Virus record (IMG/VR): IMGVR_UViG_3300029337_000248
Span: 1-19,378 of that record
Length of the DNA: 19,378 nt
Direction: 5' to 3' (one strand)
DNA from: a virus
Lineage: Duplodnaviria > Heunggongvirae > Uroviricota > Caudoviricetes
Below, in pieces: positions 4,266-15,658 of the stretch. How positions within the stretch are numbered: position 1 is the stretch's first letter; the number at the start of each line of letters is the position of its first letter. The position numbers and the translations under genes are program-made. The notes beneath the pieces are model-generated. The model ran no database searches and was not told the origin of the DNA. It saw only the letters and a program-made list of their open reading frames with translations.

Positions 4266-4747
4266 GACAGCAGCCCTCCCACCGTTTTACTGATATCGCT
4301 TAAAGCAGACGTTGCCATGTCCTGCAGATTATTCAGTTGCGCACTGAGATCACCGAACATATCGGACAGGGATTCATCCACCCGTTTGAGCGACAGGGTG
4401 AACTCAATCCGGCGCGGCATACCGTCGCGGAAAAACTCCGTTTTAGTCTGATTCAGTCCCTCAATCACATACATGCCATAAATCGTGCCGCTGCCTTCAA
4501 TCAGGGGCCATGCTTTCCCCTGTTCTGCCATCTGCTCCAGCGCCAGCAGCGACAGCCTGCCACCTGTTATCTCCGGCATAAGAACACCGGAAAGCGTCAG
4601 CATGTCGTTGTCCGGTCCCAGAAACTGCGTGGACGGACGTCGGTTTACCCGGCTGTTTGCCGCATGTCGCCAGTTGCGTTGATACTGCAGCTCCTGATAC
4701 GGCACGGTGCGCAGCATAAACACGTACAATCCCAGCACCATCATCAT
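4262..4747 (-). CDS. U: Phage tail protein U (P2 gpU family)
   Basis: 161 aa ORF whose stop overlaps the D start by 4 nt (ATGA), between the T fragment and D; size matches P2 gpU (~160 aa). Confidence 0.85.
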   Translation of the reverse strand: MMMVLGLYVFMLRTVPYQELQYQRNWRHAANSRVNRRPSTQFLGPDNDMLTLSGVLMPEITGGRLSLLALEQMAEQGKAWPLIEGSGTIYGMYVIEGLNQTKTEFFRDGMPRRIEFTLSLKRVDESLSDMFGDLSAQLNNLQDMATSALSDISKTVGGLLS

Positions 4748-5448
4748 GCGTCGTATCCCCCCTGATCGCTGTAGTTACTCCTGGCTTTTGCCTTCAACCT
4801 GCGTTCACGTTCATCAAGCTGGCGGGCCACCTCCCGCGCAATATCCTGCGCACTTTGTCCTGGCTGCGTCTGGATGATGATCTGCGTCGGTGCCTCAATC
4901 CTGTAAACGGGCGGCACAGTGGCTGCGCGACTCACAATTGCTTCTCCACCTTTCGCGGGAAGTGCCAAAGGGTGCAACGGTGGAAGCTCTGCTGGTGCGG
5001 CAGCAACGCCCATCATTCCGGCAACAACGGCAGCCAGTGCAGCTGTATTTCTCCGGCTAGTCACATTTGCCGGGCCGTTAACAATTTCCGGCCCGTTTTC
5101 ACCGACGATGCCAAACTGCCCGCGCGGGATATACCCGCCGCTGTCATACATCCCCGCAAAGCCATATCCCCATGATGGAAAACCACCCGATGGCATCATC
5201 ACTTTACCGTCTGCATTCACCGTCGCAGGTTGCTGACGCGTCACGCTTTCCGGCAGTTTTGCCTTTGCGGCCTCTTTACTGACAATGCCGAGCTTCTCCA
5301 GCAACCAGGAAACGCCGGATTTCAGGGAGTCCAGCGGATGCATGACCATATTCAGCCCTTCCGCCAGTGCCTCCCCGAATCTCCGCCCCATTGCCGCTGC
5401 ACTCTGCAGTTCGGCAGAGGTCGACTTAACGGGCGTCAACCGTAACAA
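4744..5448 (-). pseudogene. T: Tail tape-measure protein T, C-terminal fragment only (5' part deleted)
   Basis: 234 aa ORF directly upstream of U in the T-U-D order; P2 gpT is ~815 aa from memory, and the reading frame runs straight into the terminase fragment on the opposite strand with no E/E' or other tail genes upstream. Confidence 0.7.
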
Positions 5449-6865
5449 AGGCCCGCGCCGTCAGCCGGAAAAGAACGTTTTCACCGATGAACAGATTGAG
5501 AAGCTGGAAGAAATCTTCCATTCCTCCATGTTCAACTACCAGCGCCACTGGTGGGAAGCCGGAAAAACCAACCGCATCCGCAACCTGCTGAAGTCACGCC
5601 AGATCGGCGCGACCTTCTATTTTGCCCGTGAAGCCCTGATTGACGCCCTGCTAACCGGGCGTAACCAGATTTTCCTTTCCGCCAGCAAGGCTCAGGCCCA
5701 CGTCTTTAAGCAGTACATCATCGACTTCGCCAAAGAAGTGGAGGTGGAGCTGAAAGGCGATCCGATGGTGCTTCCTAACGGGGCCACGCTTTACTTCCTC
5801 GGCACCAATGCCCGCACTGCCCAGAGTTATCACGGCAACCTGTATCTGGATGAATATTTCTGGATACCGAAATTCCAGGAGCTGCGCAAAGTGGCTTCCG
5901 GTATGGCTATTCACAAGAAATGGCGACAAACCTATTTTTCCACGCCATCCAGCCTGACTCATAGTGCTTATCCGTTCTGGTCCGGTGCGCTGTTCAACCG
6001 TGGGCGCAACAAAGCCGATAAGGTGGACATCGACCTGTCCCACAGCAATCTGGCCCCCGGCCAGCTGTGCGCCGACGGGCAATACCGCCAGATAGTCACC
6101 GTGGAAGATGCGGTGCGCGGCGGCTGTAACCTGTTCGACCTTGACCAGTTGCGCATGGAGTACAGCCCGGACGAATACCAGAACCTGCTGATGTGCGAGT
6201 TTGTGGACGATCTCGCGTCCGTGTTTCCGCTCAGCGAGCTGCAGGCGTGCATGGTGGACAGTTGGGAAGTCTGGACCGACTTTCATGCTCTGGCCCTGCG
6301 CCCATTTGGCTGGCGCGAAGTGTGGATCGGTTATGACCCGGCAAAAGGTACGCAGAACGGCGACAGCGCCGGATGCGTGGTGGTGGCACCGCCAGCCGTG
6401 CCAGGCGGTAAGTTTCGCATTCTCGAGCGTCACCAGTGGCGCGGGATGGACTTCCGTGCCCAGGCGGACGCAATCAAAAAACTGACCGAGCAGTACAACG
6501 TGACCTACATCGGCATCGACTCAACCGGCGTTGGTCACGGGGTTTACGAGAACGTGAAAGCGTTCTTTCCTGCCGTCCGGGAGTTTGTCTACAACCCCAA
6601 CGTTAAAAACGCCCTGGTACTCAAGGCCTACGACATTATCAGCCACCGCCGTCTGGAGTTTGACGCCGGACACACCGACATAGCGCAGTCCTTTATGGCA
6701 ATCCGTCGCTCCACCACCGCCAGTGGCAACCGCCCGACCTATGAAGCCAGCCGCAGCGAAGAAGCCAGCCACGCCGATCTGGCATGGGCAACGATGCACG
6801 CACTGTTTAACGAACCGCTGCAGGGCGAATCCGCCAATACCAGCAATATTGTGGAGATTTTTTGA
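5449..6865 (+). pseudogene. P: Terminase large (ATPase/nuclease) subunit P, N-terminally truncated
   Basis: ORF 5285-6865 translates to a terminase-like protein (C-terminal nuclease-type segment ...YIGIDSTGVGHG...) and is followed by portal Q with a 4-nt overlap. Its first ~55 codons overlap the T fragment on the other strand, so the homologous part starts near 5450-5475, well short of the ~590 aa I recall for P2 gpP. Boundary is approximate. Confidence 0.7.
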
Positions 6866-7890
6866 TGGGAAAGAGTAAGAAAAACCGCGCAGCGGCGATG
6901 AATCAGATCCAGCATAAAAGCCAGACTTCAGCCGAAGCATTCAGCTTCGGCGATCCCGTTCCTGTTCTGGACCGTCGCGAACTGCTGGACTATGTGGAAT
7001 GCGTACAGATGGACCGCTGGTATGAGCCGCCTGTGAGTTTCGACGGCCTGGCGCGAACATTCCGCGCCGCCGTACACCACAGCTCACCGATTGCAGTAAA
7101 GTGCAACATTCTGACCAGCACCTATATCCCTCACCCACTGCTCAGCCAGCAGGCTTTTTCACGTTTTGTGCAGGACTATCTGGTATTTGGTAACGCCTAC
7201 CTGGAGAAACGCACGAACCGCTTCGGTGAAGTTATCGCCCTTGAACCTGCGCTGGCAAAATACACCCGACGCGGGTTAGACCTGGATACCTACTGGTTTG
7301 TGCAATACGGCATGACTACGCAGCCGTATCAGTTCACGAAAGGCAGCATCTTTCATCTGATGGAACCGGATATCAACCAGGAGATCTACGGCCTGCCCGG
7401 TTATCTTTCTGCCATTCCGTCAGCCCTGCTCAACGAGTCCGCCACGTTGTTCCGCCGTAAGTATTACATCAACGGCAGCCATGCAGGCTTCATCATGTAC
7501 ATGACCGATGCCGCGCAGAATCAGGAGGATGTGAACAACCTCCGCAACGCGATGAAAAGCGCCAAAGGTCCAGGCAACTTCCGCAACCTGTTTATGTACT
7601 CACCTAACGGCAAAAAAGACGGGCTTCAGATCATCCCATTGTCAGAAGTCGCGGCGAAGGATGAATTTCTTAACATCAAGAACGTGAGTCGGGATGACAT
7701 GATGGCAGCGCACCGCGTGCCGCCGCAAATGATGGGGATTATGCCGAATAATGTTGGGGGGTTTGGGGATGTGGAGAAAGCAAGTAAAGTGTTTGTACGA
7801 AACGAACTTATACCATTACAAAAACGCTTAGGAGAGATAAATGAATGGCTTGATAAAAAAATAATAGAATTTGAAATATATTCATTCTGA
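6862..7890 (+). CDS. Q: Portal (capsid vertex) protein Q
   Basis: 342 aa ORF immediately downstream of P with overlapping stop/start, matching the P-then-Q order and ~344 aa size of P2 gpQ. Confidence 0.85.
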   Translation: MMGKSKKNRAAAMNQIQHKSQTSAEAFSFGDPVPVLDRRELLDYVECVQMDRWYEPPVSFDGLARTFRAAVHHSSPIAVKCNILTSTYIPHPLLSQQAFSRFVQDYLVFGNAYLEKRTNRFGEVIALEPALAKYTRRGLDLDTYWFVQYGMTTQPYQFTKGSIFHLMEPDINQEIYGLPGYLSAIPSALLNESATLFRRKYYINGSHAGFIMYMTDAAQNQEDVNNLRNAMKSAKGPGNFRNLFMYSPNGKKDGLQIIPLSEVAAKDEFLNIKNVSRDDMMAAHRVPPQMMGIMPNNVGGFGDVEKASKVFVRNELIPLQKRLGEINEWLDKKIIEFEIYSF

Positions 7891-7947
7891 TACATTTACA
7901 TAACTTAATAGGACATCCATCGCTCAACACATAATAAGAAAAAAACT

Positions 7948-7965
7948 ACGGCACTACCGTGCCGT
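7948..7965 (-). terminator. Intrinsic terminator for the three-gene cargo operon (possibly bidirectional with Q)
   Basis: Stem ACGGCAC / GTGCCGT with loop TACC; in the minus-strand reading the hairpin is followed by AGTTTTTTTCTTATT, and it lies 10 nt past the stop of the 7975-8472 gene. Confidence 0.6.
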
Positions 7966-7974
7966 AACAAATTA

Positions 7975-8472
7975 TCACTTTAAGAATTTTTTCTGATAAG
8001 ACTCATCAATTAGAGATTTAATTATTTTCGCCCTTTTTGACACTAATACACTAATTCTTGTCCTTTGACTTTTATCATACTCCTGTGCTTTTTCAATATT
8101 AGATGTAGCATCTTTGAATAAATCAGCAATCAAAGGTTTATAGTCACCTTCGATATTAATGCGTTGTTTTAGATGATTCAACCACCGCTCGGTCTCCGCA
8201 AGAAGTGCTGTTATCTCATTTTGAAATGACATTGCATCAATTTCTTTTGAATCTCCCGGTATCCAAAACTTTCTTGATGCAGATTCAATTTCCTTTAAAT
8301 TATCTGAAACATTTTTTACAATTGCCCATGTTTCACTCCTCTTTTGCAACGCACGGGAGTTTCTATAAACAAAAACCCAACCAATCAAGGCTGTTAGAAT
8401 TGCAATCACACCTGAACTAGCAAGGTATTGTAATAACCGCAGATAAACCGGAAGTTCATCCATGAACATCAC
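7975..8472 (-). CDS. Single-pass membrane protein of unknown function (candidate effector), third gene of the cargo operon
   Basis: 165 aa ORF; one predicted transmembrane helix near the N-terminus (LLQYLASSGVIAILTALIGWVFVY), then a charged, likely helical domain; start overlaps the stop of the upstream gene by 4 nt; AT-rich codon usage. Confidence 0.75.
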   Translation of the reverse strand: MMFMDELPVYLRLLQYLASSGVIAILTALIGWVFVYRNSRALQKRSETWAIVKNVSDNLKEIESASRKFWIPGDSKEIDAMSFQNEITALLAETERWLNHLKQRINIEGDYKPLIADLFKDATSNIEKAQEYDKSQRTRISVLVSKRAKIIKSLIDESYQKKFLK

Positions 8473-8789
8473 TCCTTTTTAGCATCAGAAATATATCCCC
8501 ATATACTATCCTTGAGGAAATCCAAATCAGTAAATATTTTTAATTTTTTCCTAATTATAGCTTTATCTATATTATTTGTTCTATAAAGTCCACCAAACGC
8601 CTCTTCCAAGAATGAAGAACCATAACCCATAGCACCATCAAGGTACACGTGCACCTCATCATAATCTTGGATGGCTTTCAAAAGATACTTTTCACGGAAA
8701 CGTTGTCCATTATCAGGACCATCCTCATCATAGCGGCCATAGGGAACATCTGAAAAATCTTCAGCAACATGTATCTCTTTGATTTTCAT
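8469..8789 (-). CDS. Small acidic protein, candidate STAS-like (anti-sigma-antagonist-like / DUF4325-like) partner, second gene of the cargo operon
   Basis: 106 aa ORF translationally coupled (4-nt overlaps) to both neighbours. Size and a ...LDGAMGYGSSFLEEAF... segment with adjacent serines resemble the phosphorylatable region of STAS/SpoIIAA-like proteins. The family call is by eye and tentative. Confidence 0.7.
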   Translation of the reverse strand: MKIKEIHVAEDFSDVPYGRYDEDGPDNGQRFREKYLLKAIQDYDEVHVYLDGAMGYGSSFLEEAFGGLYRTNNIDKAIIRKKLKIFTDLDFLKDSIWGYISDAKKE

Positions 8790-9853
8790 TCAGCACCTCT
8801 CAAACTTACATTCCATTGAATAAGGGTTCCACCTATGGAGTATGGCAGATCAAATTTATCTTCAACATTATTTTCAGCATCATAAGAATATCGTCCCATT
8901 CCACTAAAAATATGTAACTGCCCCTCAGGGTTATCTACAACATACCTTTTCATATCAGGTAATCCTTTACCATGCTTCTGACTATTCATTCTTGTCTCAC
9001 CATACTGTACAGCCGCGAATATTTTATCAGAATCCGTCTTAGGATTAAATATCTGAGCGATAAATGTGAAAAAGTCTTTTTTAACCAATGTAACTGGGAT
9101 ACCTTCTCCCATATCATACACCATCAAAAATAGTTGTTCTTCGACTTTGTGTGCCAATATCCACCATCTTTTACCAATGTCCTCAATAAATTCAGAGAAC
9201 TGTTCTTCATTTGAATACGCATGTAGACCAACATTGCTAATAGATTCAGTTAAGGCTGCATATAATTTCACACCATCCGAAGCGGAAATCTTACCTTCAT
9301 AAATGGTATCTTTTATATAACGTAGAATATTTTTAATTTTTTGTCTTGCTTCGGCACTTTCATGATCATCTCTAGTTTTGCCTGCAACAGCGGAAACAAT
9401 TTCCATTGAATTAAGCTTATCTGCAGCTATACGCTGAAACCCTGTAATCCCCCAAATACCACATATTTTAAACCAGTTATTTGCCCTGGATGAACCGCAC
9501 GTAGTAATAGAAATTATATTTTTATCTTTTGTTTGCCTTTGTAAAAAGTCAATATGTGCATACAATACGATTACTGCACATGCTTTCAGAGATTTTGTAT
9601 TTCTGAAATCTATTAAAATTTTCTCACCATCATTGATGTAATCTCTGATTAAAGTGATAAACTCTATAAATAGTTTGTAATTTTTAGTATTAAATAAGTC
9701 CAATGACGCAGGCGCGGGTATTCTCACACGAGAGAATACCCGCATGGGCTGTAGCATCCGTCTTCCACCAGAAAGCTTTCTTGACTCCCGCTTCGCAATC
9801 TTCCTTGCTCTGATCAAAGAATGTTCAATTTGTTCTTCAGTTAGCCGCTTCAT
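8786..9853 (-). CDS. GHKL-type (histidine-kinase-like / anti-sigma-kinase-like) ATPase with an unassigned ~190 aa N-terminal domain, first gene of the cargo operon
   Basis: C-terminal half carries Bergerat-fold motifs in order: N-box TESISNVGLHAY (E-x3-N-x3-H-[GA]-Y as in SpoIIAB/RsbW), G1 box YDMGEGIP (DxGxG), G2 box HGKGLPD, G3 GGTLIQW. Start placed at the internal Met (MKRLTEEQ...) because GAGGAAAGG precedes it; the longer ORF reaches 9898. Confidence 0.75.
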   Translation of the reverse strand: MKRLTEEQIEHSLIRARKIAKRESRKLSGGRRMLQPMRVFSRVRIPAPASLDLFNTKNYKLFIEFITLIRDYINDGEKILIDFRNTKSLKACAVIVLYAHIDFLQRQTKDKNIISITTCGSSRANNWFKICGIWGITGFQRIAADKLNSMEIVSAVAGKTRDDHESAEARQKIKNILRYIKDTIYEGKISASDGVKLYAALTESISNVGLHAYSNEEQFSEFIEDIGKRWWILAHKVEEQLFLMVYDMGEGIPVTLVKKDFFTFIAQIFNPKTDSDKIFAAVQYGETRMNSQKHGKGLPDMKRYVVDNPEGQLHIFSGMGRYSYDAENNVEDKFDLPYSIGGTLIQWNVSLRGAE

Positions 9854-10000
9854 ATCCTTTCCTCGATAGTTGTTGAAGCTTATCAGTTCACGCAACAACT
9901 ACAAACATCTACCTGCTATCTTAAAGCAACAATTTGAAAGAACATTGAAAATCATAGTATCTGTTTGTAAACAAACGACTGTTTCTATACCTTGCGCGCG

Positions 10001-10019
10001 CTCGTATCCCCGCCACGCC
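10001..10019 (-). other. cos-like cohesive-end site
   Basis: Minus-strand reading GGCGTGGCGGGGATACGAG; the first 12 nt match the cohesive-end sequence I recall for 186 (GGCGTGGCGGGGAAAGCAT) and P2 (GGCGAGGCGGGGAAAGCAC). Located in the A-to-Q interval where cos is expected. Confidence 0.6.
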
Positions 10020-10050
10020 TGCCCGCTTTATGTAGTAGTTTTCATGCACC

Positions 10051-10151
10051 TGCATGACATGAGCAAAAGCCCGCCAGTTCTGGCATGTCTTAGCCAAACC
10101 GATCCTCAAACGATCATGCGAACCCATGCAGCATAGACATGCATGACATGA
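10051..10151. repeat. Direct repeats of TGCATGACATGA (10051-10062 and 10140-10151) flanking cos, within a CATG-rich cluster
   Basis: Two exact 12-bp copies 89 bp apart, read directly from the sequence; TGGCATGTC also occurs twice (10081-10089 and 10252-10260). Confidence 0.7.
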
Positions 10152-10201
10152 AAATCGGTCAAACCTTGAAACCAGTCATAAATATGAGCCAGCTTAATAC
10201 A

Positions 10202-10387
10202 CACTAAATAGCTGCGTCTAATACTGCTACACCTGCCGTTTACTGACATGTGGCATGTCGCGTAAGGACAACATACTGTAGGCCAGATACAGCAGGATCA
10301 GGCGAAGAAAACGGCCCCACGCCTTACCCAGCAAGGGCCAAGGGCTAACCGAAAGTGGAGCATTATTCCGCGCAGTTATTTAGTGTC
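10202..10387. repeat. ~186 bp segment bounded by 16-bp inverted repeats (ACACTAAATAGCTGCG ... CGCAGTTATTTAGTGT, 15/16 match)
   Basis: Inverted repeat read directly from the sequence; the interior is non-coding, relatively GC-rich and holds a small hairpin (GACATG-tgg-CATGTC). Nature unknown: structured RNA or MITE-like relic. Confidence 0.5.
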
Positions 10388-10492
10388 AGCTCTTTTGAGC
10401 TAAAATCAAGTTTCAACATGAGGGTCTGTGCAGGCTTTCTCATCCCGCTAATTTATACAGCACACCTATATGGCTATGAGTTTGTCATGCCC

Positions 10493-10524
10493 GCTAATCC
10501 TGTTAGGATTAGCCTTGTTTTTTT
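10493..10524 (+). terminator. Terminator-like hairpin immediately upstream of the lipoprotein gene
   Basis: Perfect 9-bp stem GCTAATCCT / AGGATTAGC with loop GTT, followed by CTTGTTTTTTT; ends 17 nt before the ATG at 10542. Confidence 0.5.
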
Positions 10525-10541
10525 ACGATTGGGATAGGGAT

Positions 10542-11348
10542 ATGAAGAAATTAACTGGCGTAATTGCTTTTGCTCTGCTGCTTACTGCTTGTGACAAACC
10601 GAAGATCGATGCATCAAGCGATCAGTCGATGAAAGAGTCCATTCAAAAAGTAAGAGAGTCCTTACCTGCAGATAAAAAAGCTCAGTTTGATGATGCAGTT
10701 AAAGTCGTTGCCTTTAGCCAAATCAACATGAGAGAGCTAATGCAGGCTGGAACGTCTTCTGGGGACGTCTACGAAACAAAAATTAAGTCAGCGTTGGAAG
10801 GTAAAACTGGTGATGAGGTTATAAATTACGCACAAACTATTCGCCTTGAGCGTGAGAAGAGAGAGAAAGAACAGGCTCTGCAAGAAATAAAAGAACTGGA
10901 AGCCAAACAAACCTCTGCAACACAGGCTGCGGAAAAAATGAAAGCCTTCAAGGTCGAACGTTCCCGTTTTTATTTCCAGAAAGAGGATTACGGCAATGAT
11001 CAGCCAATTCTGGATATTAGCGTTGAAAACGGAACAGACAAAGCGGTTGCCAGAGTATTCTTCAAAGGAGTTATTGCCAGCCCAGGAAGAAGCGTCCCTT
11101 GGTTCTCTGACGTCTTCAACTATAAAATTTCTGGAGGTCTGGAACCAGGTGAGAAAGCCAACTGGAAATTAGCCCCTAATAGATACTCTGATTGGGGAAA
11201 ACTTAAAGTTCCGGCTGATGCTATATTTACCGTCACAGTCATTGGCCTTGAAGACGCAGATGGGAAATCGATCTATGGTGACGCCGAGTTTTCAGAACGC
11301 GATGCTGACAGACTGAATCAACTTAGAGATAAGTACCTTTCTAAATAA
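10542..11348 (+). CDS. Lipoprotein of unknown function (~268 aa), candidate superinfection-exclusion or lysogenic-conversion protein
   Basis: Start chosen at MKKLTGVIAFALLLTAC with a lipobox (LLTAC); the track ORF starts upstream at 10470 but that part covers the terminator hairpin. Central lysine/glutamate-rich predicted coiled coil, then a C-terminal globular region. Confidence 0.75.
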   Translation: MKKLTGVIAFALLLTACDKPKIDASSDQSMKESIQKVRESLPADKKAQFDDAVKVVAFSQINMRELMQAGTSSGDVYETKIKSALEGKTGDEVINYAQTIRLEREKREKEQALQEIKELEAKQTSATQAAEKMKAFKVERSRFYFQKEDYGNDQPILDISVENGTDKAVARVFFKGVIASPGRSVPWFSDVFNYKISGGLEPGEKANWKLAPNRYSDWGKLKVPADAIFTVTVIGLEDADGKSIYGDAEFSERDADRLNQLRDKYLSK

Positions 11349-11456
11349 TCAAAATTAAAGCTACTTCAGCATAGTCCCTGAGAATATATATCAGGGACTA
11401 CCAAATCACGGCAGATACCCCTTAGTTAAATAATGCTAAACGCTTAGAAAGAGACC

Positions 11457-11756
11457 ATGAAACGTATAACTTTCTCCTTTACGTTAGTAGCAATCATCAT
11501 AGCCTTAGCTGGATGTGCTTTGCCAGATAAAGACGGCGACTTCGGAGCTTATGTTCATGCCTGTCAGCAATATGCATACGGAAAATCCTATGCCTTTGAG
11601 AATAGAGACTTCGCGTATAAGGTCTGTAAGGACGCGGCGAAACTGTGGAGTGAAGAAGTTCCTGGCTATATCATCAGGCAAATTCAACTACATCCTGAAA
11701 TACCCAGCGAAGAAATTAAATATGCAGCCATGGCCGGCTCTTTGGGTAACAACTAA
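11457..11756 (+). CDS. Small lipoprotein of unknown function (99 aa)
   Basis: Signal peptide with lipobox (IALAGC), mature ~80 aa with 4 Cys; co-directional with the upstream lipoprotein gene. Confidence 0.7.
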   Translation: MKRITFSFTLVAIIIALAGCALPDKDGDFGAYVHACQQYAYGKSYAFENRDFAYKVCKDAAKLWSEEVPGYIIRQIQLHPEIPSEEIKYAAMAGSLGNN

Positions 11757-11770
11757 ATCAACTTATGAGA

Positions 11771-11793
11771 AAGGGGCTTAATGCCCCTTTTCG
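11771..11793. terminator. Bidirectional intrinsic terminator between convergent genes
   Basis: Stem GGGGC / GCCCC with loop TTAAT; flanked by T-rich sequence on the + strand (TTTTCGG) and, more weakly, on the minus strand (TTTCTCAT). Confidence 0.6.
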
Positions 11794-11823
11794 GTTCCCT
11801 TATCAAGTCCTAACGAAACAAGC

Positions 11824-12010
11824 TCAACTGATTACATCCATCGACCTACTGTATTCATGGCTTCGAATTTTCGCCATCAACTCATCAGTCAATTCAGAAA
11901 CCCACTGCAGAGCTAGCCCCTTCTCTTCATCACTACACTCACTAGCCGCTACAAGCTTAAGAAAAAAATCAATGCGCTGGAGCTTCAAAGACTCCAAAAA
12001 ATAGTCCTGC
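11824..12010 (-). CDS. Small hypothetical protein (62 aa) downstream of replication gene A
   Basis: Strong RBS (AGGAGGAAAG) directly before ATG (MQDYFLESLK...); the track ORF extends to 12114 but lacks an RBS at its first Met. Sits where P2 carries orf91/tin/old. Confidence 0.6.
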
Positions 12011-12165
12011 ATCTTTCCTCCTATAACACCATACGCAATACTGTACATATAACCACTGTTTATATTTACAGTATATAATAATCTTACTGATGTAAAACGT
12101 TTTTTTACGTTCATCAGCCTGATATGCCTGGTATTATTAAGAGCACGAATTGTTAACCCGCGTGA

Positions 12166-14580
12166 TTAATACAGGTTCCGCCACTTATCATCTTCCTGCA
12201 AACGCTGGTTCCGATAGAAGATACGCAGGCCTGCTCCTGACGGAATACTGCCACCGCAAAGGAGCAAATCGACCTCTTTCTCGCTGCCATCAAATCCTCT
12301 GGACTTCAGTTCATAGACGAGCTGCTGACGCTGATACTCTGTAATTCGCTGTTTGTAGTCTTTACGCCGTTTCGGTTTAACCAGGCGCAATCTTGCTGCC
12401 AGTTCCCGGCGCTCTTTTTTGCTCATACTGTGCAGGTAATCGTGCAATTCCTTGTCATCCATGCAGGTAATGTCCGTTCTGGTATCCCCATCTGCTGATT
12501 CATCTTTCTCATGTTGGTTCAAATTTTCAGCAAGGGGACAGTTATTGCCACGAGTCCAAGGGGCGCAAGCGCCCTGGTCGGCTGCCGCCTCCTGAACGTC
12601 AACGGCTTTACGAACCATTTTCCACTTCACTGCATGAGTGCAGATCTTGCCCTCTGCAATGGGTGACCAGATGCCATAAATACGAATGCCGTGATCGCCA
12701 TAGGCGGTCGGCTCTTCGTTGATTTCATAAGCGGTTCTGATGAGGTGATATTTACGGGGAACCAGTACGCCGCCCTGTTTCATGATGTAGGTGGCAAAAC
12801 AACCAGCATCAGCAGCAGCCAGAATGGCATCAAGACGCGGGTTATCCAGTACCGGCGCACCTGCTTTTTTGTCACCCTGTTGCCTTGCCGCCTGACCAGC
12901 CAGCAAGCGAAGTTCACGGTAAGCCTGACGCCCCGGAATACCAAAGAAGCGGAATTGCTGAACACGATGCAGAGACGCCCAGGCATTCACGTATTCAGCG
13001 TTATCACGCAGAGATTTACCCGTTTCCTTGCTGATCTCGCCAACCAGACCACGACCGTCAATGTTCTTACTGATATATTTCGCGATGTAGCTTGTCGGCG
13101 TTCCTTTGCGCGGGTTAATCAACTCAGACTTAAAGCGCGGCCCAGTGTTATTGCCCAGCTCCTCGCGGTCTTCACGGATGGCAAACTTACGCAGTAATGC
13201 AGTGATGGCACGGCGGTCTTTTTTGCGCATGAAACACAACAGGTGCCAGTGAACTGTGCCATCATGATGCGGCTCAGCCACCCGCACGCCATACCAGCGC
13301 AACCCGGCTTTGTGCATCGCCTTACGAAATGCAGCAAACATGCCGACCAGATAATCGCTGCTTTGTCTTACCGTCGCGTTTGTCCAGGTCGGGTTTGGTC
13401 TGCCGTTATTTAGCGTGGAATGGAAACGCGACGGACAGGTGATAGTGTAGAAAACGGCGCAGTCACCGCGCATTTCCGCGATAAGCTCCAGACCTTTAAC
13501 ACAGGCCATCATCTCATTGCGGCGATGCGCAGGGTTGCTGCTGCTGGCGTTTACCACATCCTCCATGTCCAGCGTGTCGCCGTCTTCGTTCACCAGTTCA
13601 TGAGAACGGAAAAACTCCAGCGACTTACGGCGCTGCTCACGTTTATGCATCACGGCTTCATAGCTGACATAAGGAGATGCTTTTTTGCTGACCAGGCAAA
13701 CAGCGCGCAACTGCTCTTCCCGCCATTCGCAACGCATCTTCCATAATTTCCGATACCACCAGTCGGCGCACAACATACGCGCCAGCGAACCCGGAATGAG
13801 TTCATAGGGCACGGGTTTGCGGCGGTTTCTTTTCCGACGGAGTTGCTCAAACGCAGGTGGGATGACATCCAGACGCAGGGTTTCCGCTGCCACCTTTTCC
13901 CATGTCTTGCGGATTTCTTCTGGCTTAACGTCATCGGTGGCATACAAATCACCACAAGCTGCATCAAGGCACATACTCATATGCGCAGCTACCAGGGTGG
14001 ACAGGCGTTTCACCTGATCCTGACTCATTTCAGGCAGGATCAGCAGGCCGTCCAGCCCTTCATGGCTTGCCATAAAGCGAAAAGATGCAGATAGCTGACT
14101 GTCGCGTACATGCTCCAGTCGTTCCAGACATGGCTTAATCGTCTCACGTAAATAGCGGGAATAAGCCTTTGGCCTGCCCAGGCTGCTGAAGTATTCAATA
14201 CGTTGCATCAGCGGCTTGCTGATATGGGAAGGCTGGGCGTTGACGTCCGCCAGAATGACCATGTCTGAATTAAAACGCTGCTGCTCATGCGCCAGCTTTG
14301 CCCGGCTAATGAGCTTATCCTGCTCCATTTCGCGCTGGACAGGATCACGTGATTCATTAAAGAAATAACGCTCCCAGACCTGATCACTCAGTGCCTCGCG
14401 GCGCAACTGTTCCTGCTCGTTATCGGCAGCGTACAGAGTGATCAGGTTTGAAAGCGTAGAAACCGGCGCAACTTCCGCCGGGTCCAGATAAGGGTTAATG
14501 GCCTTTTTCGGGCTGTTCCATGAGAATGCTGCGGCAGCCTCGTTAAAGCCGCAGCAGTTGTTCATATCGGCATGACTCAT
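12166..14580 (-). CDS. A: Replication initiation protein A (rolling-circle replication endonuclease, P2 gpA / 186 A family)
   Basis: 804 aa ORF containing the rolling-circle active-site tyrosine motif ([16 protein letters not shown]); position at the end of the early operon matches P2/186. Confidence 0.9.
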
Positions 14581-15434
14581 GCACGTACTCCGTACACGGC
14601 AGAACTATCCACGCCACGCGAATAATCAAATCCCATCCAGCAGCGCGGCCCGGAAACAGCAATGATTTCTGTTGCTGATTTACCCTCGCCAGCTGCCACA
14701 CCGATGCTGCGTTTTACCTTGATATAGTGGTGAGTAAAATTGCGATACAGCGAACGGATCAGGGATGTGTCACTGTTAGAAACAATGACCGGATGTCCTT
14801 CTGATGACCGATGTTCAAGAACGGATGCCAGGTGATACTGGTCATCTTCAGTGAAACCATCAGTGTGATAACCGGAAAACGTACCGTCATATGGCGGATC
14901 GCAATACACCACATCTCCCGCCTTCAACATCGTCAGCGTTTCATCAAAGCTGGCGCAGATAAACGTTGCTCGCTGGGCTTTTTCTGCAAATGTGCGAAGT
15001 TCTTTTTCAGGGAAATACGGATTTTTATAATTACCGTAGGGAATGTTGAAATGCCCGCTCTTGTTATAGCGACATAAACCACGGTAACCGTGACGATTGA
15101 GATACAGGAAATATACCGCTTTCATGAAATCAGTAATTTCAGTTGAGCAGTTAAACTCCTGCCTTATGTTGTAATAAGCCACCTCCCTGTTTGCGATCTC
15201 AAATAAAACTCTGGCGCGAGATATAAACGATTCACAATCAGCGGCAACCTTTTTATAGAGGTTGATTAAATCAGGATTAATATCCGCAACCAGATAGCTG
15301 GGATAATCCGTTTCCATCATCACAGCACAGGAACCCGCGAAAGGTTCAACCAGTCGCGGGCCAGCAGGAAGGTATTTTTTCAGTTCTGGCATAATGGCGG
15401 TTTTATTTCCCGCCCATTTCAGGATGGTGCTCAT
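14577..15434 (-). CDS. DNA adenine methyltransferase (Dam-like, N6-adenine class)
   Basis: Motif I region ILKWAGNK...FAGSCAV and catalytic DPPY ([10 protein letters not shown]). Start set at the internal Met (MSTILKW...) preceded by GGAGGTG; stop overlaps the A start (ATGA). Confidence 0.85.
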
Positions 15435-15658
15435 ACAGCACCTCCGTTGTAATGTTTGCCTTTCAGTTCTGCGATTTCCTGACAGGTAATGCAAAGCTGC
15501 ACTCCCGGAATGGCGCGGCGTCGTGCTGGCGGAATTGGCGCTTCACATTCAATGCAAAGTACGCGTGACACGCCCGGTGATTTGGCACGGGCTGCACGGA
15601 TATGGCGCTGGCGTTCTTCTTCAACGCGCTGCTGTACGAGATCCATTGCATCAGCCAT
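15431..15658 (-). CDS. TraR/DksA-family C4 zinc-finger protein
   Basis: 75 aa with CxxC...CxxC (CIECEAPI...CITCQE); a small protein of this type is typical of the P2/186 early region; stop overlaps the Dam start. Confidence 0.75.
   Translation of the reverse strand: MADAMDLVQQRVEEERQRHIRAARAKSPGVSRVLCIECEAPIPPARRRAIPGVQLCITCQEIAELKGKHYNGGAV

What the first reader, a model, noticed from the sequence alone, without database searches (positions are those of the whole stretch)
8786..9853. GHKL ATPase motifs in the C-terminal half of the 355 aa protein, with an unassigned N-terminal domain
The ordered motifs TESISNVGLHAY (N-box with catalytic Glu and Mg-binding Asn), DMGEGIP (G1), GKGLPD (G2) and GGTLIQW (G3) are the Bergerat-fold signature. 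The E-x3-N-x3-H-[GA]-Y form of the N-box is closer to SpoIIAB/RsbW-type serine kinases than to classical histidine kinases. The first ~190 residues have no motif I recognise and could be a phage-sensing domain. No HisKA phosphoacceptor domain or receiver domain is present, so this is not a conventional two-component system.
Basis: partly seen in the sequence, partly recalled or inferred. Interest (0 to 1): 0.7.

Follow-up and report, generated by a model that had tools for sequence, protein, structure and literature searches.

The report
Prophage kinase–STAS–membrane protein defence candidate
The 355-aa protein is a real serine-kinase-type GHKL ATPase fused to a STAS domain, and with the next two genes (a small STAS-like substrate and a one-pass membrane protein) it forms a widespread, untested three-gene module in a prophage defence hotspot that looks like a membrane-acting cousin of the recently described VapKSC anti-phage system.

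Summary

The 106-aa partner belongs to DUF4325, the same Pfam family as VapS. It has an invariant Ser59 where CapS is phosphorylated.

The third gene is not a VapC nuclease. It encodes a conserved one-TM helical protein with no Pfam or PADLOC family. In 122 loci from several phyla and many prophages, 118 have kinase then STAS and about 105 have this third family; none has VapC.

The block is AT-rich cargo between portal gene Q and cos of an E. coli P2/186-like prophage. Rousset et al. (2022) catalogued it there as untested hotspot system 61.

Most likely it is an infection-triggered phospho-switch that releases a membrane effector. That mechanism is inferred, not shown. I rate it a new variant of a known kind.

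The parts
8786..9853 (-). Gene K: 355-aa STAS-GHKL protein, a predicted serine kinase of the anti-sigma-factor type (RefSeq WP_052928646, 'hypothetical protein')
   Evidence: ORF and translation. Family of 4,036 representative clusters at E<=1e-3. hhalign to VapK: probability 96.3%, E 1.9e-9, 252 columns.
9773..9838 (-). N-terminal basic helix of K (residues ~6-27; residues 1-36 hold 11 K/R against 4 D/E); role unknown
   Evidence: Secondary structure of the models; charge count.
9383..9745 (-). STAS-fold domain of K (residues ~37-157)
8798..9286 (-). GHKL (Bergerat) ATP-binding/kinase domain of K (residues ~190-352)
9215..9250 (-). N-box TESISNVGLHAY (E203 putative catalytic base, N207 Mg2+ ligand)
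   Evidence: E203 in 107/108 and N207 in 108/108 relatives.
9095..9115 (-). G1 box DMGEGIP (D247 adenine contact)
   Evidence: D247 and G249 each in 107/108 relatives.
8954..8971 (-). G2 box GKGLPD (ATP lid)
   Evidence: G295 and G297 each in 107/108 relatives.
8813..8833 (-). G3 box GGTLIQW
   Evidence: G342 106, T343 105, W347 106 of 108 relatives.
8469..8789 (-). Gene S: 106-aa DUF4325 STAS-like protein, predicted kinase substrate and switch; its start overlaps the K stop (ATGA)
   Evidence: Pfam DUF4325 E 3.5e-12, 46.3 bits, above the cut-off of 23. VapS is in the same Pfam family at 62.7 bits. hhalign to VapS E 1.5e-4. Junction sequence.
8613..8615 (-). Codon of Ser59 of S (GSS59FLEEAFGGL), the candidate phospho-acceptor
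   Evidence: Invariant in 103/103 distinct relatives. Aligns with CapS S54 in the SSF motif. The neighbouring S58 (91/103) aligns with VapS S48.
7975..8472 (-). Gene T: 162-165-aa protein with one N-terminal TM helix and a helical C-terminal domain (conserved [YF]W70, T123). Predicted membrane effector. Start overlaps the S stop; RefSeq starts at ATG 8463.
   Evidence: ORF. Hydropathy 2.19 at residues 17-35. Family alignment A2. No Pfam or PADLOC family. Present as third gene in about 105 of 118 K-S loci.
8365..8424 (-). Predicted TM helix of T (residues ~17-36), followed by basic residues (YRNSRALQKR)
7945..7968 (-). Terminator-like hairpin (10-bp stem, then a T run) just after gene T; end of the operon
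10002..10019 (-). cos-like sequence GGCGTGGCGGGGATACGA, inside a 150-bp piece conserved among P2/186-like phages; marks the hotspot boundary
   Evidence: Compared with the P4/P2 cos sequences printed in Rousset Table S2.

Best explanation
Genes K (8786-9853), S (8469-8789) and T (7975-8472) form one translationally coupled operon. It is carried as AT-rich cargo next to cos in an E. coli P2/186-like prophage.

K is a STAS-GHKL serine kinase related to VapK and CapK. S is a small DUF4325 STAS-like protein. T is a single-pass inner-membrane protein with a cytoplasmic helical domain.

Proposed mechanism, by analogy with VapKSC:
1. In uninfected lysogens, unphosphorylated S holds T inactive.
2. An infection cue activates K. 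The cue may be single-stranded DNA bound between the STAS and GHKL domains, as proposed for CapK/VapK.
3. K phosphorylates S on Ser59, or on the neighbouring Ser58.
4. Phospho-S lets go of T.
5. T damages or depolarises the membrane. This aborts the infection or excludes the superinfecting phage.

Shown here: the folds, the motif conservation, homology to VapK/VapS, the conserved gene trio, and the hotspot and prophage location.

Inferred: kinase activity, the substrate and its site, the S-T interaction, T's toxicity, the trigger, and the anti-phage phenotype.
For: Folds:
- N-terminal STAS.
- ATP-binding and catalytic residues near-invariant in 108 relatives.

Homology to a characterised system:
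- Profile of 65 relatives against VapK: probability 96.3%, E 1.9e-9, both domains.
- S and VapS are both Pfam DUF4325.
- The S profile's top PDB sequence hit is VapS 9z7o, though weak at E 0.18.
- S Ser59 is invariant in 103/103 and aligns to the phosphorylated CapS S54.
- In VapKSC the kinase, the STAS Ser and the toxin are all required for protection against phage Bas42. VapS S48E releases VapC (PMC13373217).

Operon: ATGA and GTGATG overlaps and a terminal hairpin.

Conserved trio: of 122 kinase loci, 118 have S adjacent and about 105 have the T family. They come from Gamma- and Alphaproteobacteria, Verrucomicrobiota, Planctomycetota and Bacteroidota, plus 80 IMG/VR contigs.

Defence context:
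- GC is 35.6% against 53-55% for phage core genes.
- The block lies between portal Q and cos. This is the P2 hotspot of Rousset et al., who list it as system 61 with 68 occurrences. A related trio is P4-hotspot system 69.
- Marinobacter phage AS1 carries the trio beside its Cro/CI switch.
Against: - No experiment exists for this system. It is not among the systems Rousset et al. tested, and no paper on it was found.
- PADLOC has no model for any of the three proteins.
- T has no recognisable toxin or pore domain. Its role as effector, rather than anchor or sensor, is only an analogy.
- Outside P2/P4 and prophages, flanking genes are mixed, with only occasional RM, MADS or methylase neighbours.
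- Similarity to CapK is weak and limited to the GHKL domain (probability 37%). S against CapS is not significant.
- The two reference systems point to different serines: S59 by CapS, S58 by VapS.
- The residue proposed to bind ssDNA (CapK W68 / VapK F54) could not be mapped onto K.
- No phosphatase is encoded to reset the switch.
Confidence: 0.55

Rival explanations
1. A classical partner-switching regulator. K would be an anti-sigma factor that sequesters a host or phage sigma factor or another transcription factor. S would be its antagonist. The module would tune gene expression of the lysogen or prophage rather than kill or defend. T would be a membrane anchor or an input sensor.
For: The best structural matches are SpoIIAB and RsbW with their antagonists SpoIIAA and RsbV. 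The N-box is of the anti-sigma kinase type. A membrane protein could feed in envelope signals, as in other partner-switching systems (general knowledge).
Against: No sigma factor or DNA-binding protein is encoded in the operon or nearby cargo. No PP2C phosphatase is present, which classical partner switches need. The operon sits in phage defence hotspots and is swapped as cargo. The closest sequence relative is VapK, part of a toxin-antitoxin-like defence system, not SpoIIAB.
Confidence: 0.12
2. A CapK/CapS-type transcriptional controller. [quoted passage not shown]
For: K shares the STAS-GHKL core with CapK. The GKR residues of K align with CapK K237-K239, which are predicted to contact ssDNA (PMC13373217).
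Against: S is 106 aa and has only the DUF4325 domain. It lacks the wHTH DNA-binding domain that defines CapS. K lacks CapK's N-terminal HTH. Only one small gene (T) follows, then a terminator. The comparison with CapK is weak (probability 37%).
Confidence: 0.05
3. K itself is the effector. On activation it phosphorylates host or phage proteins, in the manner of Stk2-like abortive-infection kinases. S is a pseudo-substrate inhibitor and T localises the complex at the membrane, for example at the site of DNA entry.
For: K is the largest and most conserved component, with a fully intact active site. In SpoIIAB/SpoIIAA the STAS protein both binds and is phosphorylated by the kinase (general knowledge; 1tid and 1thn among the matches). 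K has a strongly basic N-terminal helix that could bind nucleic acid or membrane.
Against: Anti-sigma-type GHKL kinases are known to phosphorylate only their cognate STAS partner (general knowledge). In VapKSC the toxin, not the kinase, executes. The invariant Ser59 in S argues that S is a true substrate.
Confidence: 0.13
4. The GHKL domain is an ATPase that does not transfer phosphate, acting as a clamp or switch as in MORC, MutL or GyrB. The module works through ATP-driven conformational change.
Against: Those enzymes need a second 'transducer' domain carrying a catalytic lysine, which is absent here. The best matches and the N-box type are those of the serine kinases. An invariant Ser sits in the partner at the phospho-acceptor position.
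Confidence: 0.08

Closest known systems
VapKSC (VapK-VapS-VapC) anti-phage toxin-antitoxin-like system, Escherichia sp. E4736 (Chambers et al., EMBO J 2026, PMC13373217)
   Same: It is a three-gene operon in the same order. The kinase has the same STAS+GHKL architecture and is detectably homologous across both domains (hhalign probability 96.3%, E 1.9e-9). The second protein is a small DUF4325 STAS protein with a conserved Ser at the start of helix 2. No phosphatase is encoded. It is associated with mobile and defence contexts.
   Different: The third gene is a ~160-aa one-TM helical protein of an undescribed family, not a PIN/VapC nuclease; 0 of 122 loci have a VapC homologue. K is about 60 aa longer, with a basic N-terminal helix. 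Identity to VapK is only about 18-23%. Nothing has been tested experimentally.
CapK-CapS, the DNA-damage-activated kinase/repressor pair upstream of Bub, CBASS and other immune operons (same paper)
   Same: The kinase has a STAS+GHKL core. Its substrate is a STAS protein phosphorylated on the Ser of an 'SSF' motif, and ours has GSS59F. ssDNA sensing is a candidate trigger.
   Different: CapK has an N-terminal HTH and CapS a C-terminal wHTH; both are absent here. CapKS regulates transcription. Here S has no DNA-binding domain, and sequence similarity is weak.
SpoIIAB-SpoIIAA and RsbW-RsbV partner-switching modules (anti-sigma serine kinases and their STAS antagonists)
   Same: These are the best structural matches for both domains. 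The N-box has the same E-x3-N-x3-H-[GA]-Y form. The Pfam family HATPase_c_2 is hit by most relatives.
   Different: Here a STAS domain is fused to the kinase in cis. No sigma factor and no PP2C phosphatase are present. The genes are carried as prophage cargo with a membrane protein.
Rousset et al. 2022 (PMC9122126) catalogue entries: P2 hotspot system 61 'DUF4325' and P4 hotspot system 69 'HATPase_c | DUF4325'
   Same: Entry 61 lists this very kinase with one residue different, the same STAS-like protein, and a third 1-TM protein of the same family (hhalign E 4.9e-10). It was seen 68 times in the gpA-cos-gpQ hotspot. Entry 69 is a diverged trio in P4 satellites.
   Different: These are list entries only. 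Protein 1 was left as 'hypothetical', no GHKL or STAS assignment was made for the P2 entry, and no phenotype was tested. In the entry-61 representative, the third protein carries a ~60-aa N-terminal extension.

Membership tests
GHKL / Bergerat-fold ATPase superfamily | Ordered N-box (E, N), G1 (DxGxG), G2 (GxGL) and G3 (GT) motifs | tested here: met
   All four are present in order and near-invariant in 108 relatives.
GHKL / Bergerat-fold ATPase superfamily | Alpha/beta sandwich fold with an ATP lid | tested here: met
GHKL / Bergerat-fold ATPase superfamily | Passes the curated Pfam threshold for HATPase_c or HATPase_c_2 | tested here: not met
   The window protein scores 19 bits against HATPase_c, below the cut-off of 26.4. 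At family level, 38/65 relatives hit HATPase_c_2 and 29/65 hit HATPase_c at E<=0.01.
GHKL / Bergerat-fold ATPase superfamily | Binds and hydrolyses or transfers from ATP | not testable with these tools
   Needs biochemistry.
Anti-sigma-factor serine kinases (SpoIIAB/RsbW type) | N-box of the form E-x3-N-x3-H-[GA]-Y, and closest structural similarity to SpoIIAB/RsbW | tested here: met
Anti-sigma-factor serine kinases (SpoIIAB/RsbW type) | Cognate STAS partner with a phosphorylatable Ser/Thr at the N-terminus of helix 2 | tested here: met
   The adjacent DUF4325 protein has Ser59 invariant in 103/103. Phosphorylation itself was not tested.
Anti-sigma-factor serine kinases (SpoIIAB/RsbW type) | Binds and inhibits a sigma factor; a PP2C phosphatase resets the switch | tested here: not met
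   No sigma factor or PP2C gene is in the operon or the surrounding cargo.
Classical two-component histidine kinase | HisKA/DHp domain with a phospho-acceptor His, and a cognate receiver domain | tested here: not met
   No HisKA or Response_reg hit. The region upstream of the GHKL domain is a STAS fold. The neighbours are phage genes.
VapKSC | Kinase with STAS + GHKL domains, homologous to VapK | tested here: met
   hhalign probability 96.3%, E 1.9e-9, 252 columns over both domains.
VapKSC | Small STAS (DUF4325) protein with a conserved Ser/Thr, encoded immediately downstream | tested here: met
   Both proteins are DUF4325. hhalign E 1.5e-4. S is adjacent to K in 118/122 loci.
VapKSC | VapC-like PIN nuclease as third gene and toxin | tested here: not met
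   phmmer with VapC finds nothing in 122 loci. The third protein is a 1-TM helical protein with no PIN hit.
CapK-CapS | N-terminal HTH on the kinase and C-terminal wHTH on the STAS protein, placed upstream of an immune operon | tested here: not met
   K begins with a single basic helix. S is 106 aa with DUF4325 only. Only T and a terminator follow.
Rousset P2-hotspot system 61 ('DUF4325') | Same proteins in the gpA-cos-gpQ hotspot of P2-like prophages | tested here: met
   WP_052928646 and WP_130723475 are listed in Table S5. Protein 1 differs by one residue. The third protein is in the same family at E 4.9e-10. Location confirmed.
Rst_3HP (validated three-gene P2 hotspot system of Rousset et al.) | Sequence identity with the cloned three hypothetical proteins | tested here: not met
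   Our protein sequences are absent from Table S2, which lists the systems cloned and tested; they occur only in Table S5. No PADLOC model matches any of the three proteins.

The most novel reading that the evidence does not exclude
K-S-T is a distinct, abundant and so far unnamed anti-phage system. Its third protein would found a new class of single-pass membrane effectors gated by phosphorylation of a STAS partner. With about 4,000 kinase clusters at 50% identity, the membrane-linked form may be the commonest of the three.
Probability: 0.45. Interest if true: 0.7.

Novelty: new variant of a known kind. Interest (0 to 1): 0.55.

Why it matters
If the model holds, three things follow.
- It adds a membrane-acting branch to the newly described kinase/STAS family of immune switches. 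That would show that one sensor-kinase module has been re-used with a repressor, a nuclease and a membrane protein.
- It assigns a function to a hotspot system that is catalogued but unannotated. That system occurs in E. coli, Klebsiella, Enterobacter and Serratia prophages and in P4 satellites. It also covers thousands of 'hypothetical' gene trios in other phyla.
- The third protein has no known domain. Working out how a ~160-aa one-pass protein stops a phage, and how a phospho-STAS holds it in check, would be new biology.

It is also directly testable with a 2-kb clone and a few point mutants.

Tried and rejected
- Sequence searches of the PDB, with the single protein and with the family profile, gave nothing significant. 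The best hits were the RsbW N-box at E 0.28 and VapS at E 0.18. Fold comparison was needed.
- NCBIfam and PADLOC gave no hits for any of the three proteins. PHROGs gave only unnamed families: phrog_3364, plus phrog_5816, whose C-terminus matches S.
- A DNA search of deposited phages found only the 150-bp cos piece. A protein search found one phage, Marinobacter AS1.
- The P2 cos 19-mer is absent. A 186/P4-like variant was found with a degenerate pattern.
- The 65-sequence alignment was too divergent to seed a viral scan, so the 22-sequence one was used.
- Identity with Rst_3HP and with the named systems of the 2026 NAR P2/P4 paper was considered. It was rejected for the first. For the second there is no matching description, and its supplements are not held.
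- CapK W68 and VapK F54 (proposed ssDNA stacking residues) could not be mapped onto K. The residue numbering in the text-extracted table is unreliable and the region aligns poorly.
- Defence-island enrichment in the flanks of 27 unrelated genomes gave only scattered RM, MADS and methylase hits. It is not used as strong evidence.
- The S-T fusion ORF in locus L037 was considered as Rosetta-stone evidence. I set it aside as a possible read-through artefact in a MAG, because it implies an odd membrane topology.
- The promoter scan was no better than shuffled sequence, so no promoter is claimed.
Full report
**The observation**

The finding's coordinates hold one ORF on the minus strand: ATG at 9853, stop at 8786-8788, 355 aa. 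RefSeq annotates the identical ORF in E. coli HH194M as a hypothetical protein, WP_052928646.

- N-box TESISNVGLHAY, residues 202-213.
- G1 DMGEGIP, residues 247-253.
- G2 GKGLPD, residues 295-300.
- G3 GGTLIQW, residues 341-347.

They are not chance matches. In alignments of 22 and 65 relatives, down to about 22% identity, the invariant columns are exactly these residues. Among 108 distinct relatives from 122 loci, E203, N207, D247, G249, G295, G297, G342 and T343 are each kept in 105-108 sequences.

On sequence alone the window protein is sub-threshold for Pfam: HATPase_c scores 19 bits against a cut-off of 26.4. It has no significant PDB sequence match.

**Fold**

An AlphaFold2 model built on the family alignment has pLDDT 79 and pTM 0.79. 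By Foldseek it matches only Bergerat ATPases: CheA P4, GyrB, topoisomerase II ATPase and SpoIIAB.

Family-level Pfam scanning agrees on the subtype. 38 of 65 relatives hit HATPase_c_2, the SpoIIAB/RsbW family, and 29 hit HATPase_c. The N-box aligns with RsbW's SEACTNAVQHAY.

No HisKA or receiver domain is present.

**The N-terminal half is not unassignable**

The model shows three parts: a long basic helix (residues 6-27; residues 1-36 hold 11 K/R against 4 D/E), an alpha/beta domain (residues ~37-157), and a helical linker.

Modelled alone, residues 1-190 give a Foldseek list headed almost entirely by STAS domains. These are RsbV, RsbS, SpoIIAA, TM1442, SLC26 STAS and MlaB, with probability about 1, TM 0.56-0.70 and rmsd about 3 A.

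The architecture is therefore basic helix - STAS - GHKL.

**The neighbours**

K's stop overlaps the start of a 106-aa gene (ATGA). That gene's stop overlaps the start of a 162-165-aa gene (GTGATG). A 10-bp-stem hairpin with a T run follows at 7968-7945.

The 106-aa protein (S) is Pfam DUF4325, 'STAS-like': E 3.5e-12, 46 bits, above the cut-off. Across 103 distinct relatives, P16, R19, R32, S59, F60, F65 and G67 are invariant. Ser59 lies in GSS59FLEEAFGGL.

The third protein (T) has one N-terminal hydrophobic helix followed by basic residues, then a helical domain. It has a near-invariant [YF]W (W70 in 94/100) and a T123-G-G-x-F-E motif that is degenerate in the E. coli copy. It matches no Pfam, NCBIfam or PADLOC family. 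All relatives are annotated 'hypothetical'.

**Genomic setting**

The window is a P2/186-like prophage of E. coli, with terminase, portal, gpA-like replication endonuclease, CI/CII/Fil and integrase genes.

The three genes have 35.6% GC against 53-55% for the flanking core genes. They lie between portal gene Q (ends 7890) and a cos-like sequence at 10002-10019. That sequence is inside the only 150 bp of the region shared with Fels-2, SopEphi and Klebsiella P2-like phages.

This is the cos-proximal gpA-gpQ hotspot that Rousset et al. showed to hold anti-phage systems (PMC9122126). Their Table S5 lists this arrangement with the same accessions. It is summarised as system 61 'DUF4325', with 68 occurrences: protein 1 differs from ours by one residue, protein 2 is the same, and protein 3 carries '1 TM'.

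That third protein differs in sequence but belongs to the same family (hhalign probability 96.6%, E 4.9e-10). Their P4-satellite table has a diverged trio, 'HATPase_c | DUF4325' plus a 1-TM protein, as system 69.

Neither appears among the systems they cloned. The block is intact in about 20 of 5,426 complete E. coli genomes.

**Closest characterised relatives**

Chambers et al. (EMBO J 2026, PMC13373217) describe two systems.
- CapK is HTH-STAS-GHKL and is activated by ssDNA. It phosphorylates CapS (STAS-wHTH) on S54.
- VapKSC has VapK (STAS-GHKL) and VapS (a small STAS with a C-terminal tail; S48). VapS inhibits the PIN toxin VapC until it is phosphorylated. The operon protects against phage Bas42, and mutants in all three genes lose protection.

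Using the sequences from their Appendix Table S2, I compared them with this operon:
- The 65-member kinase profile aligns to VapK over both domains: probability 96.3%, E 1.9e-9, 252 columns. With the 22-member profile it is 92.9%, E 3.8e-7.
- It aligns to CapK only over the GHKL domain: probability 37%.
- VapS is itself a DUF4325 member at 62.7 bits. It aligns to the S profile at E 1.5e-4. It is also the top, though weak, PDB sequence hit for that profile.
- In these alignments our S59 matches the phosphorylated CapS S54 through a shared SSF motif. S58 matches VapS S48.
- S59 is invariant and S58 is kept in 91/103. I favour S59 but cannot exclude S58.

**What differs**

The third gene is never VapC. 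I built HMMs from my own alignments and scanned 41 loci from GTDB species genomes, 80 loci from IMG/VR and 2 further contigs. The results:
- 122 loci have the kinase.
- 118 have S immediately downstream.
- About 105 have the T family next.
- The rest have another ~190-aa one-TM helical protein of similar design, or end at a contig edge.
- None has a VapC homologue.

The trio occurs in Gamma- and Alphaproteobacteria, Verrucomicrobiota, Planctomycetota and Bacteroidota. The kinase family has 4,036 representative clusters at E<=1e-3, almost all about 350 aa.

In Marinobacter phage AS1, an unrelated lambdoid phage, the overlapping trio (371, 112 and 159 aa) sits beside the Cro/CI switch. This is a classic place for lysogen-expressed exclusion genes.

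Outside phages the flanks are mixed, with some RM, MADS, methylase, integrase and resolvase genes and many housekeeping genes.

**Mechanism**

The best-supported reading is a VapKSC-like phospho-switch with a membrane output. S holds T inactive. An infection cue activates K. K phosphorylates S on Ser59. T is released and compromises the membrane, which aborts or excludes the infecting phage.

- Shown here: the folds, active-site conservation, homology to VapK and VapS, the invariant Ser, operon coupling, the conserved trio, and the hotspot and prophage location.
- Inferred: every biochemical step, the direction of control, T's toxicity, the trigger and the phenotype.

ssDNA as the trigger rests only on analogy. 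The GKR residues preceding the conserved WW motif align with CapK K237-K239, which are predicted ssDNA contacts. They are only moderately conserved.

Rivals considered:
- A true partner-switching regulator of a sigma factor. No sigma factor or phosphatase is present.
- A CapKS-like transcriptional controller. S has no DNA-binding domain.
- The kinase itself as effector.
- A non-kinase ATPase.

**Novelty and verdict**

The kinase/STAS sensor module is now a known kind (2026). The gene trio is a known catalogue entry (2022). The STAS-GHKL assignment of this protein, its homology to VapK, and above all the conserved single-pass membrane third component are not described in any paper I could find. 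The word 'transmembrane' does not occur in the CapK/VapK paper.

I therefore rate it a new variant of a known kind. It is a strong, easily testable candidate defence system of moderate-to-good interest. It is not a categorically new thing.

Noticed in passing
window 9992-10143 (cos-like core at 10002-10019, minus strand): This is the only stretch of 7900-10400 shared at DNA level with deposited P2/186-like phages (Fels-2, SopEphi, Klebsiella phages). It contains GGCGTGGCGGGGATACGA, close to the P4/186 cos cores. The canonical P2 19-mer is absent.
   Followed up: partly
window 10470-11348 (+) and 11457-11756 (+): On the other side of cos lie a DUF6694 family lipoprotein (292-aa ORF; phrog_7468) and a 99-aa predicted lipoprotein (phrog_7666), at 42.5% GC. 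This is a second piece of hotspot cargo of unknown function, possibly a surface or exclusion function.
   Followed up: no
K residue 90 (window 9584-9586) and the same column in 108 relatives: In the kinase's own STAS domain, the helix N-cap position that is phosphorylated in SpoIIAA-type proteins is Ser in 62 and Thr in 9 of 108 relatives, but Lys in the E. coli protein. Many relatives might autophosphorylate in cis; this one cannot at that position.
   Followed up: partly
L037:1991-2932 (Candidatus Binataceae MAG): A single 313-aa ORF contains both the S domain (residues 16-121) and the T protein (TM at about 158, domain 161-306). It is either a natural S-T fusion, which would support a physical S-T link, or a read-through or assembly artefact. 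The implied topology is odd.
   Followed up: partly
L125 (Marinobacter phage AS1, MK088078) 4351-6277: Genes AS1_41, AS1_40 and AS1_39 (371, 112 and 159 aa, overlapping) are the same K-S-T trio in a lambdoid temperate phage. They lie next to the Cro/CI-type regulators, and all are annotated hypothetical.
   Followed up: partly
L061-L068 and L069-L070 (IMG/VR contigs), ORF after S: These kinase-STAS loci carry a ~192-aa third protein that my T-family HMM does not match. It has the same design: a hydrophobic helix, a basic stretch, then a long helical domain. The P4-hotspot trio of Rousset (system 69) behaves the same way. The third component seems to diversify faster than K and S.
   Followed up: partly
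phrog_5816 (441-position profile) against S, window 8472-8789: The 106-aa protein matches only positions 341-440 of a 441-position PHROG profile. Some phages may therefore encode a longer protein with a C-terminal DUF4325 domain, possibly a kinase-STAS fusion. I did not retrieve its members.
   Followed up: no
window 14577-15494 (-): A DNA adenine methylase gene lies directly downstream of the gpA-like replication endonuclease gene (gpA 12166-14580) in the same operon. This is ordinary for this phage group but relevant to restriction evasion.
   Followed up: no
L043 (ENA contig, homologue P0045) 6324-12029: In this metagenomic contig the kinase gene lies about 2.3 kb upstream of a gene for a >2,100-aa DEAD/Helicase_C/MZB protein, a domain set typical of large defence helicases. 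No gene was called in the 1.6 kb directly after the kinase.
   Followed up: no
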